Assembly (NCBI GenBank): GCA_035084275.1
Contig: CM068749.1
Span: 13,578,001 to 13,642,000, forward strand
DNA: 64,000 nt
Source of the DNA: Hydrolagus colliei
Lineage: Eukaryota
Reading direction: 5' to 3'
Each line of letters opens with the position of its first letter. Within the stretch, counting starts at the first letter, position 1. The notes under the pieces were generated by a model. The model saw only the letters and a list, made by a program, of their open reading frames with translations, was not told the DNA's origin and ran no database searches. A program made the position numbers and the translations under genes. This document shows, piece after piece, positions 43,950 to 63,160 of the stretch.

Positions 43950-44230
43950 AATAATAATAATCCTTGCATTTCATATAGTGTTTCTCACGTCTTTCTAGAC
44001 GTCTCAAAGTGCTTCACAGAATATACTATAAAGTGAATTGACGATATATATGTGAGTGAAATGCGGCAGCCAATTGCACACAGCAGTGTCCCACAAACAG
44101 TTGTGAATTGAAATGACCAATTCATTGTTTTTTTGAGGGAATATTATTAGGCGTATAGAGTAAGGAAACTTACCCAAGGTTTTGCCCTGCCTGGAATCGA
44201 ACCCAGGTCTCTCACTGAACTACAGGACTC
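43950..44230 (-). mobile_element. tRNA-derived SINE with a small deletion in the head
   Basis: Colinear with 6361-6661; B box GGAATCGAACC retained, anticodon/D-arm region missing. Confidence 0.88.
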
Positions 44231-44813
44231 CTATCAGTAAAGTCTTTTTAACATGAATTAACGGATGCCGCTGGTTTCTTTTGATTGAAAAGCTTGTGAA
44301 TTAATGACTTGAGCTCATATCTAATGTTGGTACCTTGATGCAGTAATTGAGAGTTCAGTTTACTGTTCGAGTCATTGCCCTTTGGACAAGGCATCATATG
44401 AGGTGCTATATGCTGGTCCTTGACGAGGAACTTCCTGCAGCACTAATAAATAAGCAATTAGTGATCCAATCAATAGGCATTATGATTAAATAGATTTTCT
44501 GCCAAAAAGTAGTAATTCCTATAGAATCCTAGGATAAATGATCTGCACTATCTAATTGTGCTTTACAGTTTGATGTGATCAAATAATAATGTTTGCGATT
44601 CTCCTGCTGTTGTCTAGGATGATAAATCAAATGCCTGAGGAATTCTGCTTGTTCTATGTTTTCAGAAATTCATAGCATTCTCAGATAGCATCTCAACATT
44701 GACTGTGTGGTCTGATTTTAAAACCTGGAGATGGAACTACTTTGAATGATGTTTTTGTGTTCCATACCGTGCTTTGATCTCTTAAATCAATGACCTATCT
44801 GCTTTTTCCGTAG

Positions 44814-44915: not shown

Positions 44916-46339
44916 GTGAGGCTCTCTGACCTGCAGACATGGAGATGGTGGCATAACACACTTCAAAACTAAATCGCAGATAACAACATTTCATCTCAAG
45001 ATTTTTGCAAAATCTACCCCAATGACACAGCAGAGTAGCGGCTGTTCTAACAAGATAGTTGAGGGTTCCAACCAACCATGTAAACGGGGCGCAAGCTCTC
45101 ATCAGCTCTTCCACAGTGTGTCATCACTGACCCTGTGACTGGCCTCGTCACCGTGTATGTGGACAGAACGCCGGTCGGCCGCCCCCACCAACCCACAAGC
45201 AGGAAGTGGTGTCAGTGGTGACCCGATGATCCGGAAATCAGCCGTGTATTTTAGCACGTGGGAAGCAGGGCATCCATCTTGTAAGCGAACCCACTTTATA
45301 GAAACCTCCCCGTGTCACTTTATACAATAATCTGAGTTTAACTGTCCCAAGTTGTTGGACATGCACCACTGAATGCACATAGTAAACTGATGACACCTAC
45401 TGGCAACATGCAGTTATCTTTAACTTTCCATTCTTTTCTATTTTGTAATAGAAATATATGTAGATAATTGTTAATTCTGCTTCTAAGTAAAATGTCTCGA
45501 GTCTAGCTTTCTTTACCTCACCTCTATGATGAAGGTATTTTTGCACAGCATTCCACATGTCAGTAAAGCGTTTTGTCTACCCAATTTGAGGGTTTTTTTC
45601 AATCCACGCAACTGATACTGAAACCAAAAGAGAGAAGTGGGCCCGAGACAGGAGGTTTCTGAAGGAAATGACTACTTTTCAGATGAAATTTCTTCAATAG
45701 TAGTGAGAAACACATCAGGGTTACATGGTAAATGGTTAATTTGCTGGTATCAGGGGTTGTTTTAAGTGCTAGCTTGGTTCAGTTGGTAACATCTATTTTT
45801 TAGTGCCTTTCACATTGAGAGGGTGTATAAAGCACATAACTGACTGGCTGCATGAGCTTGAAATGCCAGGAAGTGGGGGGAGGGGTGCGGGGGTTGATGG
45901 CAGGTGGGAAGGTAAAGCTTTAAAAGTGGGGAGGGAGGGAGAGTGACCCCTGGGTAGAATTCCATAAAGTGGGAACAGAATGGATGAACACTTCCCTCCT
46001 AACGCTCGTACACCATATGGCAGTCTATTTGTAGAGGGAGTTTATTGCTTTTAATTTGTTCAATAGCAAATCCCACCCAAATCCATGTTGTTTCATTGCC
46101 AGCTTGCTTTCTACATGAAGTTATCACTTTTAACCTTTAAAATATTTTTTGGGAGGCAGTAATCACATATGGACAGATCCTCCTTTATTGGTGATGGAAC
46201 GTATCGTATGTTGTAATCTTCAATCTTGTTTGTAAGGTAAACCATTAAATGCAAACACAAAGTTATAGATTCTAATTTATCACCACAGTACATATTGAAG
46301 AACATCATCTCCTTAATAATAGCAAACGTATCTGAAGGT

Positions 46340-46984
46340 TAATAATAATAATATAATAATCCTTGCATTTGATATAGCGCTTTTCACATCTTATCGATGT
46401 CCCAAAGCGCTTCACAGAATATACTGTAAAGTGAATTGATGGTTTATTTGTGGGTGAATCGCGGCAGCCAATTAATTGTGTATATCAAAGTGACAATGAC
46501 TTCTTTCTATTATTAAATCGGTGACATTTTTTTAAATGAGCAACTCCATGCTCAAAAAAGGAAAATGCTAGTTAGGGTTGGCAGAATGTGTTTACTTATT
46601 TTTTTCCCAATAAAACTTACATCATAATGTAACAGTCATAATGGTTATCCTTGCATTTGATACAGCTACCATCTTATCCTGTCATCAAAATGCCAATACT
46701 TAAAGGATTTACTGTAAAGTGTCGTGAATATATTGTGTAGACAAACTTGGCAACCAATTTACGCACAACAATGTCCCCCACAAAAAAAACAGGAAGTGAA
46801 TGACTAATTTAATCTGGGTTATTATTGGCCATGAGGAACTCCTATCTGTTTTCAAGCAGTGCTATTGGATCTTTAATGCATACCTGAATAGGCACACCAC
46901 AGTTTTATCTGGAGGACGGTTGTCCTGACAATGTAGGGATGTCCTCCCAATGTGAAAGGAGCTATACAAATGTAATTTTGCTGT
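46340..46984 (-). mobile_element. Cluster: young SINE 3' half (46340-46473), older DeuSINE (46640-46930), + strand L2 tail (46936-46984)
   Basis: Tail and body motifs shared with other copies in the window. Confidence 0.75.
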
Positions 46985-47219: not shown

Positions 47220-47317
47220 GGGAGTGTTTTTTCAAGGTTATTTGTGTTCCAAATGTGGTGCAGGAACACACAAGGAATGCTTGGGCAGACTTGGGAGCTG
47301 TGGGAAGTCAACTGCAG
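47220..47317 (+). CDS. VAV3: VAV3 exon 17 (98 nt), C1 zinc finger, second half: [32 protein letters not shown]
   Basis: ttcttctcag acceptor, G|gtaatc donor; QGYxCxxC...HxxC motif; overlaps ORF 47182..47379. Confidence 0.95.
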
Positions 47318-47629
47318 GTAATCTATATGTTTGTTGTTGCGTGTCTCAGAACCTAGTTGTACAAAATACTACACATTGATCTGCACCAGATGGGGATTAT
47401 GCCACATTCAAGGCTCCAAATACTCATAATACCTCTGTTATGTGCTGGCTAGACAATTAAGTAATATTTTAGTGATGAATATTAATGTCAAATATCAGGT
47501 TCTCTCCTTTAGTTTCTGTTGTAATAATGTCTCAACTACTTGATTTTGTGACTTATTTTCATAGTAATTAGAAAAATCTAGTCAGCAACCATACTTAGTT
47601 CTTGTTTGATGCTCAACTGTATTTTCTTA

Positions 47630-48301
47630 CCCCACACCGCTTTCCCTCACCTCCGCAACATTGCCTTACTCTGCCACTACCTCACCCCACAGGCCACTGA
47701 AACTCTCATTCTTGCCTTCATTAAGTCCAGGCTCGACTATGCCAACACCCTGCTTGCCGGCCTCCCCAATTCCTTCCTCCATAGGCTACAGATAATTCAG
47801 AACTCTGCGGCTTGTGTCCTCTACCGCTCAAAGCTTTGAGACCCCCATCTCCCCCATCCTCGCCTGACTCCATTGGCTCCCCATCACTCAGAAGATTCAA
47901 TTCAAGATGCTGGTCCTCACCTTCGAAGCCCTCCATGGCCTTGCCCCACCCTACCTCTGACCTCTTAAGCCCCTAGCAACCTGTCCGCTTCCTCTGCTCA
48001 GTGGGCTCCGGCCTGCTCCATCTCTCCCAACCCACCTACCTCACCATCGGCAGGTGAGCCTTGTACCACTCTGTCCTCAACCTTTGGAATTCCATCCTGC
48101 AATCCCTCCACCTCGCCCCCTCCCCAGCCTCCTTCAAGTCCGCCTCAAGAGCCTCCTCTTTGACTGTGCCATTGGTCACCCTCCCTTCCCTCCACCCTCC
48201 CTGATCCCAACCCCAGTTTAGGTCTGAAACACTGTCCCTCCAGCGCCTTGGGATGTCTTCCTGATGTGAAAGGCACTATACTGATGTCATTTTGTTGTTG
48301 T
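47630..48301 (+). mobile_element. L2-clade LINE 3' end, frameshifted
   Basis: HLRNIA..YLTPQATETLILAFIKSRLDYANTLLAGLPNSFLHRLQIIQNSAA; ends in a stem-loop and (GTT)n. Confidence 0.93.
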
Positions 48302-48870
48302 ATGTGTTCCTGGAGGATTTAGTAAAAAAACGATTTGGAAAATGGCAAAAGGCTGAAAGAGAAATAGTTTGTGAATAGTGTGCTTGGTGTAGTGATGGGA
48401 TTTTCCAGGCATAAAATTATACATTACAAAGCAAAATAATGGCCAGGTGTTCTTATAGGCTCAGCACATTCAGAGTAAAGCTTTATTGAATCTTTTAGCT
48501 CCATTTCTTTACATTCGGTATTCATCAAAAACAGGGAAAAATGTTGCCTGAATAAAATGAAAAGTGAAAGGTTACCACTCTCACTTTTAATGATATTCCC
48601 CAAAGAGTTGCAGTGTTATTCTGTCTTGCTTTCTTTCAAAAGCAGAAAGGTATTGCATAAATGAGAGAAGCAAAGACTGTGAATGAATATCTGCACTGAA
48701 AAGAAGCAATCAGCCATGCGCATGTGATCCACTACCCAAACTTAGCCCTGCCCTCAGAAAGCAAAACAGTACTCTCTGCAGGTAGAAACAACGCAGCAGT
48801 TCTGCAGGTAACTGGGAGTGCAATGCAGGAAATAGTCTGCTCTTGCTGAGAAAAGTTTAGATCTTCCCTA

Positions 48871-48918
48871 ATGCCAATGTTCAAATTTGTTTTAGATTCT
48901 GCAACACATAAACATGGG
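48871..48918 (+). CDS. VAV3: Putative alternative first coding exon of a short VAV3.1-like (SH3-SH2-SH3-only) isoform: MPMFKFVLDSATHKHG
   Basis: In-frame ATG 8 codons upstream of the micro-exon acceptor; resembles the human short-isoform N-terminus MPIFTFLS (recalled, not aligned). Confidence 0.65.
48896..48918 (+). CDS. VAV3: VAV3 micro-exon 18 (23 nt): (D)SATHKHG
   Basis: tttgttttag acceptor, GGG|gtgagt consensus donor; converts phase 1 (end of exon 17) to phase 0 (start of exon 19), so an exon of this phase is required here. Confidence 0.88.
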
Positions 48919-49092
48919 GTGAGTAGTGGTGCTGTTTCTTCTGTTCTTGCTTTTGCAACTTTCTGTGCCAGCTATTGTGTTGTGTGTGTGCTAGCATTCT
49001 GCAGTAAAATGATTCTCTGCTCCGCAGTAGTGCTGAATTGTTGCTACGATGCATGCATTGCCTTATTGTGCTTTTGAGATTATGCGTGCATT

Positions 49093-49550
49093 CATAATCA
49101 TAGAATCATAGAATCATAGAATTTTACGGCACAAAAGGAGGCCATTCGGCCCATCTAGTCTGTGCCGGCTCTTTGAAAAGAGCGATTCAATCCCACTGCC
49201 CTGCCCGCTCCCCATAGCCTAATAGACCCGTTCTCCCTAAACAAAGATCTAATTCCCTTTTAAAAGTTGTTATCGAATCAGCCTCCACCACCTTTTCAGG
49301 CAATGCATTCCAGATTCGAACAACTCGCTGAGTGAAAAAATTTCTCCTCAGCTCCCCTCTACTGCGCCTTGAAACTATTTTAAATCTGTGACCACGAGTC
49401 ACAGATTCACCCACGAGTGGAAATAGTTTTTCTCTATTTGCCCTGTCGAAACCCCTCATGATCTTATAAACCTCTATTAGGTCTCCCCTCAATCTTCTCT
49501 GCTCCAGAGAGAATAACCCTAGCCTATCTAGCCTCTCCTCATAGCTGAAG
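49093..49550 (-). mobile_element. CR1 LINE 3' end with intact ORF2 C-terminus and (ATTCTATG)n tail
   Basis: ORF 49187..49492 RGDLIEVYKIMRG...TRGH.FK...FFTQRVVRIWNALP is the CR1 signature; octamer repeats CATAGAAT on +. Confidence 0.95.
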
Positions 49551-50102
49551 GAGAGGCTTCTTTAATTGTAGTATGGTAGACAATTAAATTGGAGGAAATA
49601 TTTTAGGATTTAAAAGACATTGGACCTGAATCTTTGCAAAACAAACACTTTTGTGCAGTGAAATAATTATGCTTCGAGTCTTATTTTAAACATCTTCAAC
49701 ATTGTGCTTATTTTCCTTTTAAAGCGACGATACTGTGATTGACTGACTAACTTGTTTTGTAACTTCATTTACATCCTTTAATGCTACCACCAAATGAAGC
49801 ATTTAAAGACCCAGCAGAACCAGTTTTACTCAATTCTCTCTTGTAAAATATTGAGATTTTATGAAAGTAGCTTTGTTAGGAAGCTGGACTGGAAACTCAA
49901 TTTGTATTTTAAGAGTAATGTGGAATTCTGTATAAAATAAATTTATCTTGTTCTGCATACAATATAACTGAAATGAGTATGCTAAAGGCCATTTGTCGGC
50001 ATATCATGTAAATGTTCTTAATGTGAAGAATTTAGTAATATTCATAGGAATGTTTTGTAAAATGTACGATTGAGAATATATGCCTTTTTTTTCTTACTAC
50101 AG

Positions 50103-50148
50103 CATAGGATTAATGGACACAAGAGGCACAACAGGCATCTAGATCCAG
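50103..50148 (+). CDS. VAV3: VAV3 exon 19 (46 nt), C1-SH3 linker: HRINGHKRHNRHLDP(G)
   Basis: ttttttttcttactacag acceptor, CAG|gtagat donor; same length and R-x-NG...DPG pattern as recalled human KRTNGLRRTPKQVDPG. Confidence 0.9.
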
Positions 50149-52549
50149 GTAGATTTATTTTTCTGACTGAGAGGCAAACAAACTAATGTTATCTCTGATC
50201 AAAATCATATCTATTTGATGCTAACCAGAAATATTGCATATTGCTTACGAACCCCTTTGTTTGAAATGTGTTGGATCTTGAATTTACCCATGTTTGTACA
50301 ATATTATATAAAATAAATTCTCACTCCCGTAGGCTATTTGGGAGAATTGCACATGTACAGCATTAATATACCTTTTGTGGTGAAGAACAGGCAGGCACTT
50401 GAAAAACCTCAATGCAAACAGGTTTGGAATCTTAATATTGTATCAATGATTTCTCACAGTGAAATCTTCCATCATAGATTGCCTACAAAATCAATGTTAT
50501 GTTACTGTTTTACCGCTTTACCCCAGCACACGTAGACTCTACTATCTTGTCAAAGGAAAGAGATAAGCATTTTGACTGGTTCTAATTTCACTGTCAATGA
50601 ATGGTGCAAAAGTTGGATATTTCAGCATACTCTTCTTGTGCATATGCCACACATTGAAAACATTATGTAGTTTTCCTTGGTCCGGTTACAATAGTGCTAC
50701 AATTTCTACATTGGCACTTCTTGTTTGATTGATAGAACATCACTGAATCAGGCCCGAGACAATGTCTGAGCATAGTTTGACAAAACAGTGGCACTTTGAG
50801 CAGTCAAGTGAATTAGAGCAAGAAACCTGAAGCTTCTTGCCAAAAATAAAAAAGCCAGGAATTTGTGCAAAACTTCAAAATCGAGAGTCTTTAAAAGTTT
50901 ATCAAAGAACTTGTTCCCCAATGATACGAAAATAGTTTTGGAACACCAAGAACGTTTAAGGAAGTACTGTAGACCCAGACTTCCACCCACTGGATTTATG
51001 CTCCACTGGCACAACCAAAAGTGCTGCCAGACCTTCGCTGGCACGTATTGTTGGCAGTACAACAGTATGTGCCAGCATCCAGATTCAGAAGGGAATCATG
51101 TTATTCAATCTCAAAAAAATACGAAAACCACAGTGTAAGCAGCAATGCAGTTTATTCAGATACTATTTAGGGTATTTCTTAAAAAAAAGATGCATCACTA
51201 AGGTAAGGTCTGCAATTCAGCTTGACAAGAACTGAATTAAAAGCACTTCTTTGATGCTGTGCACAAGCAATGTAAAAATAATGGGAAACTTGGAGCAGAT
51301 GGTTTGGCATTAACTAAAGCTCAAGTTCAAAATAGCTGAAGGCTGTTTTAGTACTCCAATGAAATTTCCAACCTTTATTTGTGAGGGAGTGTACTAGAGT
51401 TTAAGGGCTGCTGCAGCATTGGCAGGACTAAGGTGGTGTGCAGTACAAAGTTTAAAGCAAAGTGTGTTAAATGGGGTGTAACTTGACTAAGTGAGCACTG
51501 CGCAGTTCGTAAACACTTCCAACTTTTAACTACCAAGAGTGTTTTGATTGGTAAATCAGAGGCCTGCTTCTAAGGTCTATTCAGAGTAAAGGTGACTCAT
51601 CTGCAAAACAGGTTTCAACAAAGTCATATTCTGTACTTCGACTATAGTTGTGAGAGTAAAAGACATTTAACCAGAAGATGCATCTGATCGACCACTAACT
51701 GACGCTGGAAATATGAATGCCAAATTCAGCTCATTATGTGAATTGAATTGCAAACAATTAGAGCAAAGGTACGTCAGAGGGTGGTAGTGGGTGAGTGAAC
51801 AGAAGAAATCATGTTGAATCAGTATGTGAAAACGTAAGGAATCAAATGCTGGTTTTGCATTACAAGTCTGCCTGCAGAGGCAAGCCTACCTCTCCTGACA
51901 ACTTGTAGTGAAATGTGGCTGACATTCCCAGCAGAAAAAGTATTTAAACCTTCCTTTGAGTCCCATCTCCCAGTGTCTCTATACTGTTGGCCTCCGTCTG
52001 CAAAATCAGAAACGGTTAACGCCAGCACTCAGTGAAAGCCTCCCGTTTACTTCCTACTATCCTCACCTGCAGCTAGGAACATATGGTGTCATTTGTTTAT
52101 GCTACTTTAGCACCCGCAGATGCGAAAACACTATGGTGCATAAAGGTCGGGTGAAGTCACCTGATATTCGGGTACATCTTCTGGTCTCTGTCGCGGCGAC
52201 AATCGGCAAAATAATCTACTTAAGACACAGCAACAACACCTTCCATTTATATGGAGCCCTTTGTGTGGGGTAGAGTCCCAGAGCGCTTGTTCATTTTGTG
52301 CATCCTCAGAACGTCATCTCACTGTGAGCTTCTGGCCCTACCTAGCTCAACTCCTTCTTCTGAGCTCTGACAGCAAAATGTGCAAATGAAAACGCAGCTG
52401 TCACATGGAAAGCAGCACTGAGATTGTCAATGTTTGCCTTTCATCTTTGTCACAGTCTGCAGCCTAGGAACCATAATATAAAAGCAGCATTAGCCAAATT
52501 CACAGACTACACTCTGAAGTAGGTGGAGGTGAGCATACCATGTTCCCAG

Positions 52550-53123
52550 TTATCATAAGCCTTTGTCACCTCTCGGCTGGACTATTCCAATGCCCTCCTC
52601 GCCGGTCTCCCCTCATCCACCATTCACAAAATCCGTGTTATCCAAAATTCCGCTGCCCACATTCTCACCCAAACCAAACCACTCCCCGAATAACCCAGTC
52701 CTTGCCAGACTTCACCTGCTCCCTGTCTTGGAGCAGATCAATTTCAAGATCCTCACTCTTGTTTTCAAATCCCTCCACTCCTCTGCACCTCCATATTTCT
52801 CTGACCTCTCTCCTCACAAGTACCCGTTGCCTTTGCTCTACTGGGTCTGGCCTCCTTCTTGTCCTCCAAATCCTCCATTCCACCGTCAGCGGCCGTACCT
52901 TCAGCCACTGCACCCCGAGGTTCTGGAACTCCCTTCCTCACTCCCTTCACCTTGTCCCCTCCTTTCCTACTTTCAGGTTACGGCTAAAAACCTTTCTTTT
53001 CAACCACGGTTTTGGTCACCCTTTTCCCCCTCCCCCTGGCTCGGCCCCGGGATCCGTTATTGTGAAACGCTCTGATATGCCATTTGGCATGGAGGGCGCT
53101 ACATAAATCCAAGTTGTTGTTGT
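52550..53123 (+). mobile_element. L2-clade LINE 3' end, same subfamily as 21430-22056
   Basis: PVLARLHLLPVLEQINFKILTLVFKSLHSSAPPY; tail GGCATGGAGGGCGCTACATAAATCCAA(GTT)n. Confidence 0.92.
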
Positions 53124-55587
53124 ATATATACCATCAAGTATTCATTCACAAAATCAAGCATAAAAGCGCTTTGGCTTCAAAGAATAACACAAATCTCTTT
53201 TTGTTTACCTTTTAAATCGCTGTGTACTTTCATTCAGGAGTAAAGAACAAAAGTGAAATCTTGCTGCAGATATTGGTTTGCTGGGCAACTGAAGTTTGGA
53301 AATGATAAGGGACATTACTGAACATGTAGAGACTTTCAAACAGTAACCGAAGCAAAGAATTGATGGTTAAGATTGAAAGAATATGAAGAATAAAAAAAAG
53401 CATTCAATACCCATTAATGCAATGGTTGCTAATGCAGATCTTACTTATTTGCTTACAATTTTTTTATAGAACTATATCAGATATGAAGTTCTTTGTACCT
53501 TCACCTCCTCTGCATCTGTGGTTCATACATTTAATAAAATTTATTAAGCTGAATCATGATTTTAGCAGTAAACTCAACTGAGTGCATGAACTCCTTCCAG
53601 TAACCAGAAGTACATTAGGCATATCACACTGATCCATGTGAACACTGCTTTGAAAGTACAACAACAACTTTGATTTGGATAGCACCCTTCACATTGAATA
53701 GGGTCTTGGATGGTTCAAAGTGATTTACGTTTGATCGGTCTCCCTGCAAATTAATGTATTATATCGCACACTTTCATAATTTAGGAATACTATTAGAATT
53801 GTTAGGCACCAGTCTTCGCATAATTATTGCCAGTACTGTTAGTGAGCACACATTACACTGCCTGCTTCACAAACACATCAGAAAGTAACTTGTTCACTGC
53901 AACAACAAAAAAAACTGAACAGGAATTTCAAGTTTTTGGCCACAGCAAAGGAAAACAACCTTTGTTGTTTGACATGGCAGACTGGATTGCACTTCACCAG
54001 CGCAACCTTGATTTTACTTGACTTGTAGTTCATCCTTGATCATGCAAAAGAACAATATTTATTCATTAAGTAGCTGACGTGATGTATGAGAACCAGAGTC
54101 ATGAGGTCTTTGAAAAGAACAATGCTCTTGTGCACATTATTTTTAAGTACACATTTGAGATATTGGGTGTAACACACCCGAATCGTATGACGGTGATCAG
54201 ATTAAGTGTATTTTACTCTGTGCTTTTAAACAATGTATGGATTGTTTTCAATCAATAGAATTTTTACAGGTTTTGTACAGAACAATTCTGTGACATTACC
54301 CTGATAATTGGATCGTGTGTTCATTGTCAACTTAACTAAGGCACCAGGAAAACAGCTGTGATCTGCACCAGCTGTGAAAGAAACAGGTCTTTTGGATCTC
54401 ATTTCAAATCATACGATTGTTTGCGCTTCATGCATTGAGTTTAAATGACTGGTTTACCCAATGTTTAAATCCTTTTTTTTTCTTTTTACAAAAGGAATAT
54501 ATAAATTGGGAATGTGAGAAGGCCACCTCGTCCAATTAAGTCATTAATAACCCTAATTGTAGATGTGGATAAAGCTCTCAATTGTTTTCTCCACTTCGCT
54601 TAATTCTTTTACTTTCAGGTGTTCATTTTGATGCTCCAAGTTGTTATTACTCGCCACGTATCTATCATCTCTTTTCTAAATATCCCAATCATTTCTACAT
54701 CTCTGTCCTTCAGGGGCTATGCATTCCACGTTCTCACAACCCTTGCAATAAAGAAATGCTTTCTGATCCCTGCTATTACTTGTTGAGCATTCCTACCATT
54801 TAACCTGATGTTTTACAGCCTTACTGAATGCGAGTGGCTAGATAGTGCCAATTGCTGATAAGATAATAAGAGAAAGGAATACCCAAGTAAAACTGGCTGG
54901 ACATGTCTTATGCCACAGAAATGTTCTTTGTACCAGTAAACCATGAAGCAGCAAATGAGTAAGCATTGAAGTAAACAATTGTTCCCTAAAGTGGAAGAAA
55001 ATTGTACATAAAGATGAGTGTAAAAGTAACCATAGGTGGCTTCATAATAAATTTACCGCAACACATTAAATGGCGAATTGTTGTGCTTTTTATCATTGTT
55101 ATCTTTTATACTGGTAGATTTTGTTGTGGTTACATTACAGTATGTGGTAAGTTTTTTTTGTTTAAAAGTCTGTGCTTCACAGGACCCAGCCTATGATCTC
55201 ATGCATTAAAAGGCATTATGCTGCACTAGCAAAATATCGTTGTCAAGTTTACTTTGTTAATCACATGTAAACCATAGCTTTACCTTTATCCGTTTCTGAG
55301 AAATAGTCCTTGGAGTTTGGCTTGAGATCGCATTTCTTGTATCCCAGCTATAGTACATTTTGGGTGGGTCCAAGCTTCTGGCAATGTTGTGCAGATCCAT
55401 TACCTGTTTTGCGATAGTCAGAGAGTCCTGGTTAATTAACACAGAGGGTATTCACGGAGGATCACACAGGAGAAATGTGGTGTAACCAGCCACATCACAA
55501 TATGCAGTATTTGAGCTGGTTGTAAAAAAAATGTCACTCTTGTCCTTCATTCACTACATAAACCAACTGCCCTGACTTGTGTTTCAG

Positions 55588-55724
55588 GATTACCAAAGAT
55601 GCAAGTTACCAGAAGGTATAATGGGGTACCTCAACCTCCTCAGTATGCTGGACCTCCGTTAAACATTCAGTTGGGAGATATCATTGAAGTTGTGCGAGCG
55701 GAAGCACACTACTCATGGTGGGAG
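55588..55724 (+). CDS. VAV3: VAV3 exon 20 (137 nt), N-SH3: LPKMQVTRRYNGVPQPPQYAGPPLNIQLGDIIEVVRAEAHYSWWE
   Basis: gtgtttcag acceptor with CCCTGAC branch site, GAG|gtaaga donor. Confidence 0.96.
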
Positions 55725-57035: not shown

Positions 57036-57739
57036 ATATTGTAACAAATATTATGTTTTTGGAAGCGAATTACAAAAATATTGCTTATGCAGCCAGTGGA
57101 CATTTCTCAGATCTAACATCCGACTCTTGGTAGCCCAAAGTTTGGACTTCCCTGATCTGGAAAAATCTCTTATTAAAGAGGAATTGGTGCTGGGTAATGA
57201 AAACAAAGGATTGTGCAATGGTACAATTGGCAACACGATCTTATCAGATTTCTGAATATTGGAGCAAAGCCACAACGAATTAAATTGTGCACTTTACACA
57301 ATATTCCCAAATGTCTGTGTAGTCTTGCCCCAGGAGCTCTCCATAAATTGTGTAATTTATGGAGGAAAGAACAGGAAAGAATTTTACAGGAAAGAATTTT
57401 GGTAGATAATAATAGTCATTTTTCAAACAACACTCACCTACGTCTGAGAACGCTACTTTTATAATGTGAAAGTATACAGATGTTTGGCTCGGTTTTGTCA
57501 TATCGTAGAGCAATAACATTTTGCTGTGTATTTGTTCATCATTCAGTGGACTTATTGCTCTCTGGTAATAAGCTTTAACATTAACAGCAATTAAAGTAAA
57601 ATAAACTGTTAAATTTAAGGTTTTGGCCCATTGGACATTCTGTAATATAAATCAGTCAGAGATCAACATGAAGAGCATCTGTCCATTTGTTTTCAAATGT
57701 TAAATGGTTTCCCATTTCAATATGTTCATGACATTGCAG

Positions 57740-57805
57740 GGTAAAAATCTTACAACAAAGGAAGTTGGCTTCTTTCCAAGTGATTCAGTAAAGCCTCTGC
57801 CATGT
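57740..57805 (+). CDS. VAV3: VAV3 exon 21 (66 nt), N-SH3 end: GKNLTTKEVGFFPSDSVKPLPC
   Basis: acattgcag acceptor, TGT|gtaagt donor; overlaps ORF 57704..57892. Confidence 0.95.
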
Positions 57806-58903
57806 GTAAGTACAAACATTTCGATATTTGTTAGTCAATGTTCAAATGCGTTTCAAATCCATTGTTGGAAATGTGAAACATGTCTGAATTAATGAAACTA
57901 CATTTGGGAGTTTTTCAATTCGGGCCCAGTGGAGGGGGTGAGGTGCTTATCTTCATGTTTAAATGCACAGTGAAAATTCAATTTACAGATCTAACAGTGG
58001 TGTACTTTTAAACGACGGGTCAATATTTTTCCAAGAGGAAAACAGAGTTCTTGGGGAAATAGAAGAAAATTATCAGGGCTTGAAAGTACTGTACTGCAAT
58101 GCATAAGGAAATAACCCTCAGGCAATATAAAACACCAGGGGGAAGCCAAATAGCTGTATTGATCATTTACAAAGACAATTAACCTAATGTAGTCAACGGG
58201 CAAGGTTGATAATTACATTTGTATCTTTTCCCTCCAAAGCATTTTCTTGAATAAAACAAGAATGCAGTTTCTTACATTGCAACTAAAGAAAAGTGAATGA
58301 CGCCTTAGTTATTTTGTGTCTACAGAGCAAAATAAAGAATTTAATTATCTCCAATTTCAGACCATTTACAAATGATCCACCATACATGCGATATTTTTCA
58401 ATAAAGAACGCCTTTTCAAGTAGTGTGATATTATATTGTAGGAAGAGATTTCTCACTCTAAATCCAGCAAAGTGATAAGAATTCACAAGTCAATGAGAAC
58501 ATTAGCAAAGGTATGTAAACAAGAAGATAGCAGATTATAGAAGATTTATTTAATCGGTTGACAAGATGCAACTCTTATTAGCTACACTGGCTTTGATTTC
58601 TTATTCGTGATATTTGGAGGATAATATTATTCGAATAATGACAACAGTAATTACCAACCATGCCATTTTAAACTTTTTCCTAATCTCTATTTTTGGACAG
58701 GGGTATTTGAAAAGATGGATAATATTCAATTACATTCATTGAATATTACGTTCAACCCACACGCTAGCTGACTATTGAGCATGTTGTTTGCTGATTATGT
58801 GCTTTTATTTAACTTTCACCAAAATCCTTGACGGATTGTAGGGGATTGTTATTGACTAGCATTGACTGACTGTGATGTATCCTTTTGTTCCAATTCAATT
58901 TAG

Positions 58904-58938
58904 GTTCCAAAACCCACAGATTATTCTGGATATCCATG
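58904..58938 (+). CDS. VAV3: VAV3 exon 22 (35 nt): VPKPTDYSGYP(W)
   Basis: caatttag acceptor, TG|gtatgt donor; matches recalled human VPKPVDYSCQPW. Confidence 0.93.
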
Positions 58939-61078
58939 GTATGTATAAATGCACATAAAATATTGTTTGCAGATTTTGATTCCTTTAAGAATTTACCACA
59001 CTGTAACTTTAAGAATTCTAAAATGTTATTTGATATACTTGGTATAGTTGGAAGATTTCTGTTGGAAACAAAATCAACTGAATTCTGATGTTAAATTATA
59101 ATTTAATTCTGATGACATAGATCAATGATGTTTATGCTGAACATTTCCTGATAAGACGTTGTATTGTGCATTTGAATAAAGGAATGGAAGATCTATTTTA
59201 ACGGAAATCCTCTTTGACATTTTCTTCTCAAATTAATAAACTGCCATTCACAAGAACTGAAATGTAATTAATAATGACAATTAAAAAAAAAAAAAATGCA
59301 CTTTGGCTGAGAGAAGACACCAATGGAAACAAATGCACCCTCACCCAACCACCATATCTATTCATCCTTGGATTTGACATTAATCTTGAATTTCTGTGGA
59401 ATAAGGCAACAATTAAATATATTCAGCAATACTTCTCTAGGGTTCTAGCAAAGATTTCCAAAGCCTAATTTATAATTGATTCAATTATATGAAAACAATA
59501 ATTTTCATAAATTCTCCAAACGAAGCAAAAAAAATCTGAAAGTTTTGGTGCTAAAACGCACGAAAAGAAAACGGTGAAATGTAACAGCATTAAATGTTGC
59601 TTCATTTAACTCTATTAATATAAAATCTACTCCAAATCTACTCTAAATGCAATTAATTGTATTTTCTTGCGTATAATGTATGTTGCAAAACAGAATAATG
59701 TCATACAGGCTATTGAGTGTAAAAATAAAGTTCCATGAATAGTGTTGCAGTCTATAAATTAACTGTATTATGAGATAGATCAGTGAATGACTATTGAAGT
59801 AGTCAGTAATTTTGTGTAGTGTGTAAGTATTGTATCATTATAAATTCTGTATAGGTATAACCACATGAAGATTGTCTGCACCACCTGAAAATTTTCTTCT
59901 ACAATTTGTTAAATAACATCCATAAAATATATTATCATTATTCCCCAGAGACTTGTTCCATTGAATGGAATTATGTATAGATAGCTCACTCACTGAGGTA
60001 GTGACAGTGAATGGCATAATATATTTCTGTCACATTGTGAGAAGAACCGGTTTAGTTGTAACCTGTGTGCTTGATGTTCAATAAATGAACATAGCAAATT
60101 TTTAGTGCACAAGGATCTTATTTAATAATGCTGATCTTCCCAGAACTTATCTATTTCATGCAATATTCTGATCCACCTGATTAGGAACAATCAAATTGTG
60201 TTTATTTCTACTTTCATATTTTAATGAACGCTGAGGCTTCTGAATTTATTTTTAGTGACTTGGTGGGACTGTACATTTTTATGATTCATAAATGTGCTGA
60301 TATAGACTGAATCCACCTTGCTCTGATCCAACCCCAAGTGAGATTTTAGGAGGATTTATCTGAACAGGACATACTTGCTCACGCACACATCCTAAAGTAC
60401 AGAATTGCGTACAGAATGCAGCATGCCATCTTTCAAGTGAGCACATGAAACTGAACTAAGATGCATTTACAAAGCAGGAGAAAGTTAAGAAAGCTCTAAA
60501 ATATTTTCTAGTTTGTAATTGGAAGCAATTACTTTTTCCCCCAACTTCATAAGCCAATTCTCATTCATTAAAGGGATTTGCCTAAACGTTGCATTAGAAC
60601 AACTTGCATTTAATATAGCATCCTTCACACAAAGTAACATCTTGGAAATGCTTGAAAAAGATGGGATTGAGTGCCAAGCTAGTCTTAGCCTGTATTGTAG
60701 GGTAAAACTAGGTGGAATTTCGGGCTTTTTAAAATTTATACCTTAGCAATGAATATGGAATTTACAACCAGCCGGCACCTCATTTTTATGTATGTCTTGT
60801 CTCATTGTAGCCAATAGCAATTAATGTTATTGCATTTATCCTTTGTTCCAGTGAGTTTATTAAAACATCTACTCAGTCCAGGTAGTATGCCAATGCTGTG
60901 CCTAGGTATACCAGTGTGCTGTGCTCTTCAAGATTAGATAACTTTTCTAATGAAACTTTGGCTTGGTTTGATTTTGGAGGAACTTAATTCAATTTAAACT
61001 CTATTCAATTTAAACTGCTTCAAGACTTGCGACCAATAGTAGTCAGAATGTGTTAACTAACCGTCTTGTCTTTCACAG

Positions 61079-61195
61079 GTATGCAGGAATAATGGAGCGG
61101 CCACAGGCAGAAAATGAACTCGCGGACCGAGGCAACAGTACTTTCCTTATACGGCACAGGGCAAAGGAAACTGGAGAATATGCAATAAGTATTAA
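61079..61195 (+). CDS. VAV3: VAV3 exon 23 (117 nt), SH2: YAGIMERPQAENELADRGNSTFLIRHRAKETGEYAISI(K)
   Basis: ACTAAC branch site, tttcacag acceptor, AA|gtaggt donor; FLIR phosphotyrosine-binding arginine intact. Confidence 0.96.
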
Positions 61196-61397
61196 GTAGG
61201 TGTCCGTTAGATTTAAATTTACATGCATTTAGGAAATTCTTACTTTCAGCCCTGTTTGTGTTTCATCCATTAGCTAGCCAACTGGAAACCATATGGACCA
61301 TTGATTTTTCTCTGGCTATTATCAATGCTATTATGCAACTGGTTGACAGGAGATGTACTTCTGTGTGGTGACTGTTCAGTTTGCTCTAACCCTTGCC

Positions 61398-61850
61398 TGG
61401 CTCAGTTGGTAGGACTCTTTTAGTCATAATACAGTAATAATAATCCTTGCATTTGATATAGCGCTTTTCACGTCTTCTAGACGTCTCAAAACGCTTCACA
61501 TTTAGTGTCCCACAAACAGTCGTGGATTTTATCACAATCAGAAGGCTGAGGGTTCAACTCATGACCTTGAGCTCAGACTGACATTCCCAATACATTGCTT
61601 GATTGTTAAATAACAGATGAGATGTTAGACTGAGGTCCTATCTGCTGCCTGTTAAACATCCCATTACACTATTTGAAAAGAGAAGGGAGATTGGCCAACA
61701 TTTCCCAAGGTAACAAAAATGATCATTCACTTGTTGTGAGATATTGCTAATAATATTAATCCTTTCATGTGACAGCCTTGTCATGTCGTTGAGACATCCC
61801 AAAGTGCTTCACAGAACATATTGTAAAGTGAATTGACTGTTATTACATGT
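61398..61850. mobile_element. Nested SINEs: older + strand DeuSINE split by a young - strand SINE fragment (~61436-61527), followed by a second - strand tail (~61750-61850)
   Basis: Head GGCTCAGTTGGTAGGACTCT resumes as ATCAGAAGGCTGAGGGTTCAA after the insert. Confidence 0.75.
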
Positions 61851-62301
61851 TACAGAAAAAAACTCTGTAGTGCATTGCGATATTTCAATGCTTTAATCAC
61901 TGTATCAAATTAGAAAGTTTATTATTATAATTATTTTTCGCAAATTGCTCCTTTTAGTGACCATGGTGATAAATGAATGTTTACCTGAGGTTGTGTTCCA
62001 CTGTCAATTAGAAGTCTCTCAGATTAGAAGTCATTTTTGTGACACCTGTCAGACTGCCTTTGCAAATGTATTTTACTCTGAGCTGTAGGAAAGCAATTGC
62101 AATATCATCCAGAGAGGTTGTATGTAATTCCTACCTTCACACAGGATGTACTGAACACATTGTTTTCTAATCATATGCCTAGTCTACAAACTGATAGTGC
62201 AAGCATAAGTTAGTTGTTGTAGTACCTGACCTTTAGTTTATCCATACTTTACAACATGCTGCTGATCCACCCAACATTTCAATCCAATTCATTATCCGCA
62301 G

Positions 62302-62389
62302 GTATAATAATGAAGTCAAACACATCAAGATTATATCCAGAGATTGCTGTTTCCACATTGCAGAAAATAAGAGATTCAGAAGTTTAATT
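62302..62389 (+). CDS. VAV3: VAV3 exon 24 (88 nt), SH2: YNNEVKHIKIISRDCCFHIAENKRFRSLI
   Basis: atccgcag acceptor, ATT|gtgagt donor. Confidence 0.95.
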
Positions 62390-63030
62390 GTGAGTATTGA
62401 TTCCACTAGCAAGATTTACACGTCCTGTAAGCACACCTTCAATAAAGTTACTTAAATGATTACATACCCCTTAATTAAAGCAGGGGAAGTACTGAAAGCT
62501 TCTTCTGTTTATTGAGAACATTAAACAGAGACTATAAGACAGGAGAATTTATTCGGTGCGAGGCTGATGCCTGATGGATGACTGAATTGGGACTTTAGGT
62601 TCGTGTCCACGATAGAAAGCAATGCTGACCTCTAGTGTTTTCAGCCACTTGCTAACGCTGGTTGTTACTGAATATGGATTGATGTCCATAGAGGGCATCA
62701 AATGTTCCAGTCTCCACTGGATGGGCTGCTGGGCTCACACAATCATTTCTCCTCAGAGTTTTATTTTCATTTTAAATGGTTTGATTTGAAATGTTCCACC
62801 TTTCGGTGCCAGTCCTCTTTTTTTCTTCTATGATCATGTTTCTTGCATGATTTAATATACATTCATTTTTTAAAAATCAAAAGCAAACTAGAGTTCCAAA
62901 TCGGAAAGCTAAACATTCTTGATAAACTCTTCATTGATGTACCATATGGTTTAAAAATTCCACTAAATCACCTAGAACTAATACTGGTACCCGCGGGTAT
63001 GTATTAACTTAAGAACTATTCTTTTGACAG

Positions 63031-63160
63031 GAACTTGTAGACTATTATAAATATCACTCCCTTAAAGAGGGATTTAGAAGTTTGGATACAACACTTCAGT
63101 ATCCATATAAAGAACCTGAAAACACCACAATTGCAAAAAATCACAGACCGGGGAGTCATT
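63031..63160 (+). CDS. VAV3: VAV3 exon 25 (130 nt), SH2 end: ELVDYYKYHSLKEGFRSLDTTLQYPYKEPENTTIAKNHRPGSH
   Basis: cttttgacag acceptor, T|gtaagt donor. Confidence 0.96.

What the first reader, a model, noticed from the sequence alone, without database searches (positions are those of the whole stretch)
48871..48918. VAV3.1-like GEF-less short isoform start apparently conserved in a cartilaginous fish
Seen: ATG CCA ATG TTC AAA TTT GTT TTA runs in frame through the acceptor of micro-exon 18, giving MPMFKFVL-DSATHKHG, then splices to exons 19 onward. Recalled: human VAV3.1 begins MPIFTFLS, an 8-residue intron-derived extension of the same exon, and encodes only SH3-SH2-SH3. The offset and the MP-x-F-x-F pattern agree. 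Inference: this adaptor-only or dominant-negative isoform dates to the jawed-vertebrate ancestor. Caveat: both ATGs have weak Kozak context (C at -3).
Basis: partly seen in the sequence, partly recalled or inferred. Interest (0 to 1): 0.75.

Follow-up and report, generated by a model that had tools for sequence, protein, structure and literature searches.

The report
Ancient short adaptor form of VAV3
This chimaera-type fish has, at the end of one VAV3 intron, the same in-frame start codon that begins the enzyme-less human short form VAV3.1, and a close relative makes the matching spliced RNA, so this form, known mostly as a human tumour marker, is likely as old as jawed vertebrates and is predicted to act as a signalling adaptor or brake.

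Summary
Confirmed and extended. The window holds VAV3 of a holocephalan (691 of 714 residues identical to elephant shark VAV3). An ATG at 48871, 25 nt before the exon-18 acceptor, reads in frame through exons 18-25. Human VAV3.1 (NP_001073343.1) starts with an equivalent 8-residue head. So do database proteins of other mammals, platypus, kiwi, a lungfish-like record, reedfish, carp and pipefish: Met-Pro is invariant and there are no indels. None of 1,015 acceptor-like control sites matches the human head as well. In stranded RNA reads from one sample of a related species, 6 sense reads cover about 48708-48918, and 3 splice from intron-17 sequence through exon 18 into exon 19. None lies further upstream or in intron 18. 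The ATG overlaps the likely branch point here, but apparently not in rodent, pipefish or reedfish, so splice signals alone do not explain it. Not shown: the transcription start, translation (weak Kozak context, upstream ORFs), function, and the start in sharks, rays, amphibians or squamates. Likely an ancestral SH3-SH2-SH3 adaptor or competitor. The isoform is known; its depth was not found in the papers searched. The scan had no earlier VAV3 note.

The parts
47220..47317 (+). VAV3 exon 17 (end of the C1 zinc finger); last exon private to the full-length form
   Evidence: tblastn with P0001; AG/GT borders and open frame 17-18-19-20
48621..48645 (+). Pyrimidine tract followed by AG and CAG: a possible upstream alternative acceptor (rival reading of the RNA)
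   Evidence: 16 of 20 pyrimidines before the AG ending at 48642; use not tested
48652..48662 (+). TATA-like and C/EBP-like words upstream of the RNA-covered region; candidate promoter
   Evidence: sequence; motif names recalled, no function tested
48708..48870 (+). Intron-17 sequence present in sense poly(A) RNA of a related species; likely 5' UTR of the short form (true 5' end at or upstream of 48708)
   Evidence: depth table; read coordinates inferred from bin depths
48716..48727 (+). Upstream ORF, out of frame (ATGs at 48716 and 48722, stop at 48725)
48823..48849 (+). Upstream ORF in frame with the start, 8 codons, stop at 48847
48868..48872 (+). CTAAT branch-point-like word; its branch A (48871) is the A of the start codon
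   Evidence: only yTnAy match in the last 60 nt of intron 17; use not tested
48871..48895 (+). Start codon and eight intron-derived codons (MPMFKFVL), ending in the exon-18 acceptor AG
   Evidence: homologous heads; covered by RNA reads with no listed difference
48896..48918 (+). Exon 18 core (23 nt), shared by both forms
   Evidence: P0099 includes it; 3 reads leave at 48918 into exon 19
50103..50148 (+). Exon 19 (46 nt)
   Evidence: the 30-letter loose end equals window 50103-50132
55588..55724 (+). Exon 20 (proline-rich stretch and first SH3); in-frame ATG at 55599 with A at -3, a possible alternative start
57740..63160 (+). Exons 21-25 (57740-57805, 58904-58938, 61079-61195, 62302-62389, 63031-63160): rest of the first SH3 and the SH2; the last SH3 exons are not in the window

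Best explanation
The last 25 nt of VAV3 intron 17 hold an in-frame start codon at the same place as the start of human VAV3.1, a related species makes spliced RNA across it, and it is likely the start of a short isoform inherited from the jawed-vertebrate ancestor that is predicted to work as a catalytically inactive SH3-SH2-SH3 adaptor. Likely mechanism: a promoter inside intron 17 starts a transcript at or upstream of 48708 (inferred). Its first exon runs through the exon-18 acceptor, uses the normal donor at 48918 and joins exon 19 (junction shown in RNA of a related species). Translation from 48871 (inferred) would give about 291 residues, reckoned with the elephant shark C-terminus. The product would lack the CH, DH, PH and C1 domains and keep the proline-rich stretch, SH3, SH2 and SH3. 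It would dock on the same phosphotyrosine sites and SH3 partners as full-length Vav without activating Rac or Rho. It would therefore most likely damp Vav exchange signalling while supplying exchange-independent scaffolding (inferred from paralog fragments). The same 25 nt also serve as branch point, pyrimidine tract and acceptor for the full-length mRNA.
For: Sequence and open frame. Human head verified, and the match is beyond chance (0 of 1,015 control sites). Met-Pro sits eight codons before the exon-18 residue in placental mammals, platypus P0030, kiwi P0225, lungfish-like P0004 (92.8% to Protopterus from residue 9), reedfish P0015/P0358, carp P0049, an unnamed teleost P0020 and pipefish P0236. 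Of 28 short proteins that reach upstream of exon 20, 17 carry this head. RNA: 6 sense reads lie within about 48708-48918, and 3 of them splice at 48918 to exon 19. None lies in 48320-48707 or in the 167 nt of intron 18 laid. Summed sense depth at the ATG is 4.65, against 0.31 in 8 repeat-free intron bins. The codon before the Met is Thr in rodent and pipefish and Pro in reedfish, so base -2 is C and the ATG cannot be a yTnAy branch point there. Thr and Ile (kiwi) put A at -3. Function by analogy: a Vav2 PR-SH3-SH2-SH3 fragment inhibits killing in an SH2-dependent way (PMC2193212 passages, partly cited as unpublished), and an isolated Vav1 SH3-SH2-SH3 fragment rescues Cbl-b-ICN1 scaffolding (PMC5691892 passages).
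Against: The RNA evidence is 6 reads from one sample of another species, with 27-30% of each run read. One of three runs laid no read on the stretch. No capped 5' end was seen, and upstream intron sequence could be too diverged to lay reads. The ATG has C at -3 and C at +4, and three upstream ATGs lie in the likely 5' UTR, two with G at -3. The start was seen in 0 of 31 shark and ray proteins held and in no amphibian, squamate or turtle protein among 444 held; these are annotated proteins, not genomes. Some records use other 5' exons into exon 18 (tortoise P0292, hippo P0118) or start at the exon-20 Met. The heads of ray-finned fish are diverged: the pipefish and P0020 heads score no better than 7 and 2 of 1,015 control sites. 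The kiwi and pipefish heads come from read-through gene models, not from isoform records. No functional test of VAV3.1 was found in the passages read.
Confidence: 0.75

Rival explanations
1. The short RNA is real and old, but the ATG at 48871 is used little in this lineage. Ribosomes are diverted by the upstream ORFs or scan on to the exon-20 ATG at 55599, giving a form about 36 residues shorter.
For: C at -3 and +4, and upstream ORFs at 48716 and 48823. The exon-20 ATG has A at -3. Many records start at that Met, e.g. P0113, P0125 and bamboo shark P0260.
Against: Invariant Met-Pro and exact spacing across lineages imply selection on this start. A at -3 is inferred in rodent, pipefish and kiwi. 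The domain content would be much the same.
Confidence: 0.12
2. The reads come from a retained intron 17 or from an upstream alternative acceptor (such as 48642 or 48645) in full-length pre-mRNA. Such an RNA would meet the in-frame stop at 48847 and probably be degraded, so no internal promoter exists.
For: The 5' end was not mapped. An acceptor-like tract lies at 48621-48645. Low intronic background exists in these runs.
Against: No read lies in 48320-48707, and depth rises towards the exon as at a transcript 5' end. The human form has its own exon 18 (PMC551616, PMC6153599 passages) and is discussed as a chromatin-linked transcript variant (PMC12104440 passages). This reading does not explain the conserved start codon.
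Confidence: 0.08
3. The likeness is a by-product of conserved splice signals: the branch point supplies AT, the pyrimidine tract supplies the Phe codons and the acceptor supplies the last codon.
For: The only yTnAy word in the last 60 nt has its A on the ATG. Residue 8 is Leu, Ser or Ala, as an NYA-G acceptor allows. 5 of 24 acceptors have an open in-frame ATG nearby.
Against: The G and the following Pro codon are not part of the branch consensus (recalled). In rodent, pipefish and reedfish the preceding codon excludes the ATG as branch point (inferred from protein, DNA not seen). No indel was seen in any lineage. Spliced RNA carries the region.
Confidence: 0.05

Closest known systems
Human VAV3.1 (VAV3 isoform 2, NP_001073343.1; transcript NM_001079874.1 in PMC6153599)
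   Same: Eight-residue head starting Met-Pro joined to exon 18; 4 of 8 head residues identical; 62% identity over the 221 aligned residues available; SH3-SH2-SH3 only.
   Different: Third residue is Met, giving a second ATG; C at -3; start overlaps the likely branch point. Promoter and protein not shown here, whereas a western blot of human VAV3.1 is cited in a figure legend (PMC12104440; figure not seen).
Predicted short VAV3 proteins of other vertebrates (platypus F6QDR7, reedfish A0A8C4SQE3 and A0A8C4SPN3, carp KTG38248.1, lungfish-like P0004)
   Same: Same Met-Pro start and spacing; P0004 shares 6 of 8 head residues.
   Different: Automated predictions with no experimental support seen. 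No cartilaginous-fish record with this head was among those held.
Engineered Vav1 and Vav2 SH3-SH2-SH3 fragments
   Same: Same domain content; they act as inhibitor (Vav2, PMC2193212) or as a sufficient scaffold (Vav1, PMC5691892).
   Different: Artificial, overexpressed and from paralogs; no equivalent Met-Pro start was seen in the VAV1- or VAV2-type proteins held.

Membership tests
VAV3 gene | Orthology to VAV3 rather than VAV1 or VAV2 | tested here: met
   All 3 hits of exon 20 are named VAV3; 691 of 714 residues identical to elephant shark VAV3. No tree was built.
VAV3.1-type isoform | In-frame ATG eight codons before the exon-18 core, inside intron 17 | tested here: met
VAV3.1-type isoform | Head homologous to the human head | tested here: met
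   0 of 1,015 control sites score as high
VAV3.1-type isoform | Spliced RNA with a 5'-extended exon 18 joined to exon 19 | tested here: met
   3 reads in a related species, one sample; no RNA run of the window's own species was listed
VAV3.1-type isoform | Transcription starts inside intron 17 | tested here: inconclusive
   Reads begin near 48708 and none lies upstream, but there are only 6 reads and no cap data
VAV3.1-type isoform | Product lacks CH, DH, PH and C1 and keeps SH3-SH2-SH3 | tested here: met
   The start maps to residue 568 of P0099, after C1 (514-560). The last SH3 lies beyond the window and is inferred from P0099.
VAV3.1-type isoform | Protein is made from this start | not testable with these tools
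   Needs ribosome profiling or proteomics
Dominant-negative or adaptor isoform | Competes with full-length Vav or scaffolds partners in cells | not testable with these tools
   Only paralog-fragment analogies

The most novel reading that the evidence does not exclude
VAV3 has made two proteins since the origin of jawed vertebrates: the exchange factor and a dedicated SH3-SH2-SH3 adaptor that tunes Vav signalling. The adaptor's start is written into the branch point, pyrimidine tract and acceptor of intron 17, so one 25-nt stretch is read both by the spliceosome and by the ribosome. The conserved hydrophobic Met-Pro head may have its own role in stability or targeting. VAV3 knockouts and tumour expression data would then mix two gene products with possibly opposite effects.
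Probability: 0.45. Interest if true: 0.65.

Novelty: new member of a known kind. Interest (0 to 1): 0.48.

Why it matters
In the passages read, VAV3.1 is called 'without known function' (PMC9977432) and its properties 'virtually unknown' (PMC6153599), although it is reported as the main VAV3 message in some tumours and in prostate (PMC6153599, PMC2957443). Conservation from chimaeras to mammals argues that it is a selected gene product and not tumour-related transcriptional noise. It gives an exact target, one ATG or one internal promoter, for isoform-specific tests in fish, chick or mouse. It also warns that edits at this start can disturb splicing of the full-length form.

Tried and rejected
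No whole genome is held for the window, so no genomic DNA of other species was compared; cross-species evidence is at protein level. The run search listed no RNA holder for the stretch; this is no evidence either way, and the three RNA runs came as additions. The 14-kb lay was swamped by repeats, so its joint tables were uninformative; only exon depths, fixed differences and intron background were used. For the background I kept 8 bins without exon or repeat and dropped the others, including 53807-54273, which had repeat-like reads on both strands. The profile search of 1.84 billion representatives added no new short-form head. The sigma-70 promoter scan does not apply to a vertebrate and was ignored. 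The alternative N-termini of tortoise P0292 and camel P0120 found no convincing match in the window. First exon borders were off by one at several exons and gave false stops; they were corrected. In one search the end of exon 25 was over-extended by 4 nt. Nine paper searches listed no study of the isoform's conservation. The library lacks most subscription journals, the original description (Trenkle 2000, seen only in reference lists) was not read, and no supplements were opened. The scan's notes held no VAV3 finding.

Full report
Gene and anatomy. The window holds exons 2-25 of a VAV3 gene on the + strand. All three hits of exon 20 are cartilaginous-fish VAV3 proteins, the best from elephant shark. 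A 24-exon model is identical to RefSeq elephant shark VAV3 (P0099) at 691 of 714 residues. The species is therefore most likely a holocephalan, close to but not identical with that record. Exon 17 is 47220-47317, exon 18 is 48896-48918, exon 19 is 50103-50148 and exon 20 is 55588-55724. The route 17-18-19-20 is open and matches P0099 apart from isolated substitutions; skipping exon 18 breaks the frame.

Observation. The ATG is at 48871, 25 nt before the exon-18 core, and a second in-frame ATG is at 48877. Both have C at -3, and the nearest upstream in-frame stop is at 48847. From 48871 the frame is open for 222 codons through exon 25. Human VAV3 isoform 2 (P0112, NP_001073343.1, 287 aa) begins MPIFTFLS and has only SH3 and SH2 Pfam families. 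Full-length P0099 also has CH, RhoGEF, PH and C1 families, all before residue 561. The window's ninth residue maps to residue 568 of P0099, so the short product would be about 291 residues; the last SH3 exons lie beyond the window. Passages of PMC551616 describe VAV3.1 as a unique exon 18 plus exons 19-27, and PMC6153599 distinguishes exons 18a and 18b. Human genomic DNA was not seen.

Chance. An open in-frame ATG within 60 nt of an acceptor occurs at 5 of the 24 acceptors of this gene, so the ATG alone means little. I translated the 24 nt before 1,015 other pyrimidine-rich YAG sites on both strands in the same geometry. None scored as high against the human head (23; best control 18) or against the lungfish-like head (32; best control 20). 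Against the pipefish and unnamed-teleost heads, 7 and 2 controls scored as high.

Other lineages. Searches for short and full-length relatives and three cluster look-ups gave 444 proteins. Met-Pro eight residues before the exon-18 residue was found in placental mammals (human, pig, hamster, ground squirrel, whale, bat), platypus (P0030), kiwi (inside read-through model P0225), an unnamed protein 92.8% identical to lungfish VAV3 from its ninth residue on (P0004), reedfish (P0015, P0358), carp (P0049), an unnamed teleost (P0020) and pipefish (inside read-through model P0236). The offset was read against full-length relatives; for carp it rests on likeness to P0020. In nine heads compared, positions 1 and 2 are invariant, position 3 is Ile or Val (Met in the window), position 8 is Ser or Ala (Leu in the window) and position 9 is Glu or Asp, with no indels. 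Of 146 proteins under 470 aa, 28 reach at least 14 residues upstream of exon 20; 17 carry this head and 11 do not. The 11 include one teleost record starting at the head's sixth residue, two records with another 5' exon (hippo, tortoise) and gene-model fragments. Against the reading: 0 of 31 shark and ray proteins held show the head, nor does any amphibian, squamate or turtle protein. These are annotated proteins, so absence does not show loss. A shared start in holocephalans and bony vertebrates places it in their common ancestor by established phylogeny (recalled); jawless fish were not tested.

RNA. No RNA run of the window's species was listed. Three raw-read runs, X2-X4, come from one sample of another coded organism. 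Their VAV3 exon reads all lie in one orientation and carry fixed differences from the window (44897, 44898, 55655, 55658, 55703), so the library is stranded and the species is a close relative. On the repeat-free stretch 48320-49085, 6 reads were laid (0, 5 and 1 per run), all sense and all between about 48708 and 48918. Three reads in X3 leave at 48918, and their loose end equals window 50103-50132, the start of exon 19. With a median of 30 loose letters out of 101 they hold about 70 laid letters, that is exon 18 plus the ATG and the sequence before it. Four of the 6 reads are at least 99% alike and no difference was listed. No read lay in 48320-48707 or past the donor. Summed sense depth at the ATG is 4.65, against 0.31 in 8 intron bins without exon or repeat. 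A Poisson estimate gives 2e-5 for five reads and 0.004 for three, ignoring intron divergence. Depth at exon 16 was 4, 13 and 4, so the short form looks like a minority of VAV3 RNA in that sample. Only 27-30% of each run was read, and the true 5' end is unknown. An acceptor-like tract at 48621-48645 keeps alternative splicing open as a rival.

Splice-signal rival. The only branch-point-like word in the last 60 nt of intron 17 is CTAAT at 48868-48872, and its branch A is the A of the ATG. Here, then, splice signal and start overlap. In five records the residue before the Met can be read: Thr (two rodent-like records, pipefish), Ile (kiwi) and Pro (reedfish). Thr and Pro codons put C at -2, which does not fit the yTnAy consensus (recalled), so in those lineages the ATG is likely kept without being the branch point. 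Thr and Ile put A at -3, a better start context than in the window. This is inferred from protein; the DNA was not seen.

Translation. Not shown. Besides the weak context, the likely 5' UTR holds ATGs at 48716 and 48722 (stop 48725) and at 48823 (stop 48847). An in-frame ATG with A at -3 lies at 55599 in exon 20, where many database records begin, including a 284-aa bamboo shark record. A mix of starts is plausible and would leave the domain content much the same.

Function. Inferred. A Vav review describes the catalytic core and the autoinhibitory role of the last SH3, and says nothing was known about isoform-specific signalling (PMC4601183 passages). A dominant-negative role for VAV3.1 has been proposed (PMC2957443; PMC6153599), and so has a constitutive scaffold role (PMC12104440, whose figure legend also cites ATAC-seq tracks and a western blot for VAV3.1; the figure was not seen). 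Paralog fragments support both: a Vav2 PR-SH3-SH2-SH3 fragment inhibits killing and needs its SH2 (PMC2193212, partly cited as unpublished), and the Vav1 SH3-SH2-SH3 fragment alone bridges Cbl-b and ICN1 (PMC5691892). I favour a competing adaptor that damps exchange activity at shared docking sites. My odds: homologous and ancestral start 0.85; internal promoter 0.8; translation from 48871 in this lineage 0.65; net inhibitory role about 0.5.

Novelty. The isoform is known in human (PMC9977432 calls it 'without known function'), and automated annotation already predicts it in some other vertebrates. I found no cartilaginous-fish record of it among the proteins held and no paper on its evolutionary depth in nine searches. 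Eight papers were read as matched passages only and the rest as listings; no supplements were opened, and subscription papers such as the original description were not available and may bear on this claim. The scan held no earlier VAV3 note; an unchecked note on a PATJ short form in a ray (e1-9386797) reports a similar pattern in another gene. Verdict: a real, new and early-branching member of a known kind. It turns a poorly understood human isoform into a conserved and testable one, but it is not a new kind of system.

Noticed in passing
window 47318-50148 versus P0001, P0100, P0101, P0102: Four UniRef elephant shark models mis-handle micro-exons 18 and 19 (reading into introns), while RefSeq P0099 has both.
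   Followed up: partly
window 47197 and 57704-57728: Open in-frame ATGs also lie before the acceptors of exons 17 and 21 (and of exons 2 and 3); none resembles the human head, and RNA was not examined there.
   Followed up: no
P0292, P0118, P0120: Tortoise, hippo and camel records splice a different upstream exon into exon 18, which suggests further internal starts in amniotes; no match was found in this window.
   Followed up: partly
P0105, P0258, P0141, P0015, P0319: A conserved optional segment of about 28 residues between the SH2 and the last SH3 appears in shark, reedfish and frog isoforms; it has no match in the window, whose end falls in that intron.
   Followed up: partly
window 2459-30537: Intron 2 is about 28 kb and exon 1 is not in the window; the intron was not searched for other first exons.
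   Followed up: no
window 44000-44466, 46335-46801, 47582-48300, 49100-49560, 52406-53339: High-copy repeat fragments with very deep read pile-ups in DNA and RNA runs; some carry decayed reading frames that look retroelement-like (likeness recalled).
   Followed up: no
cluster of P0192: Short Campylobacter protein fragments are clustered with an anole VAV3, a clustering artefact of the database.
   Followed up: no
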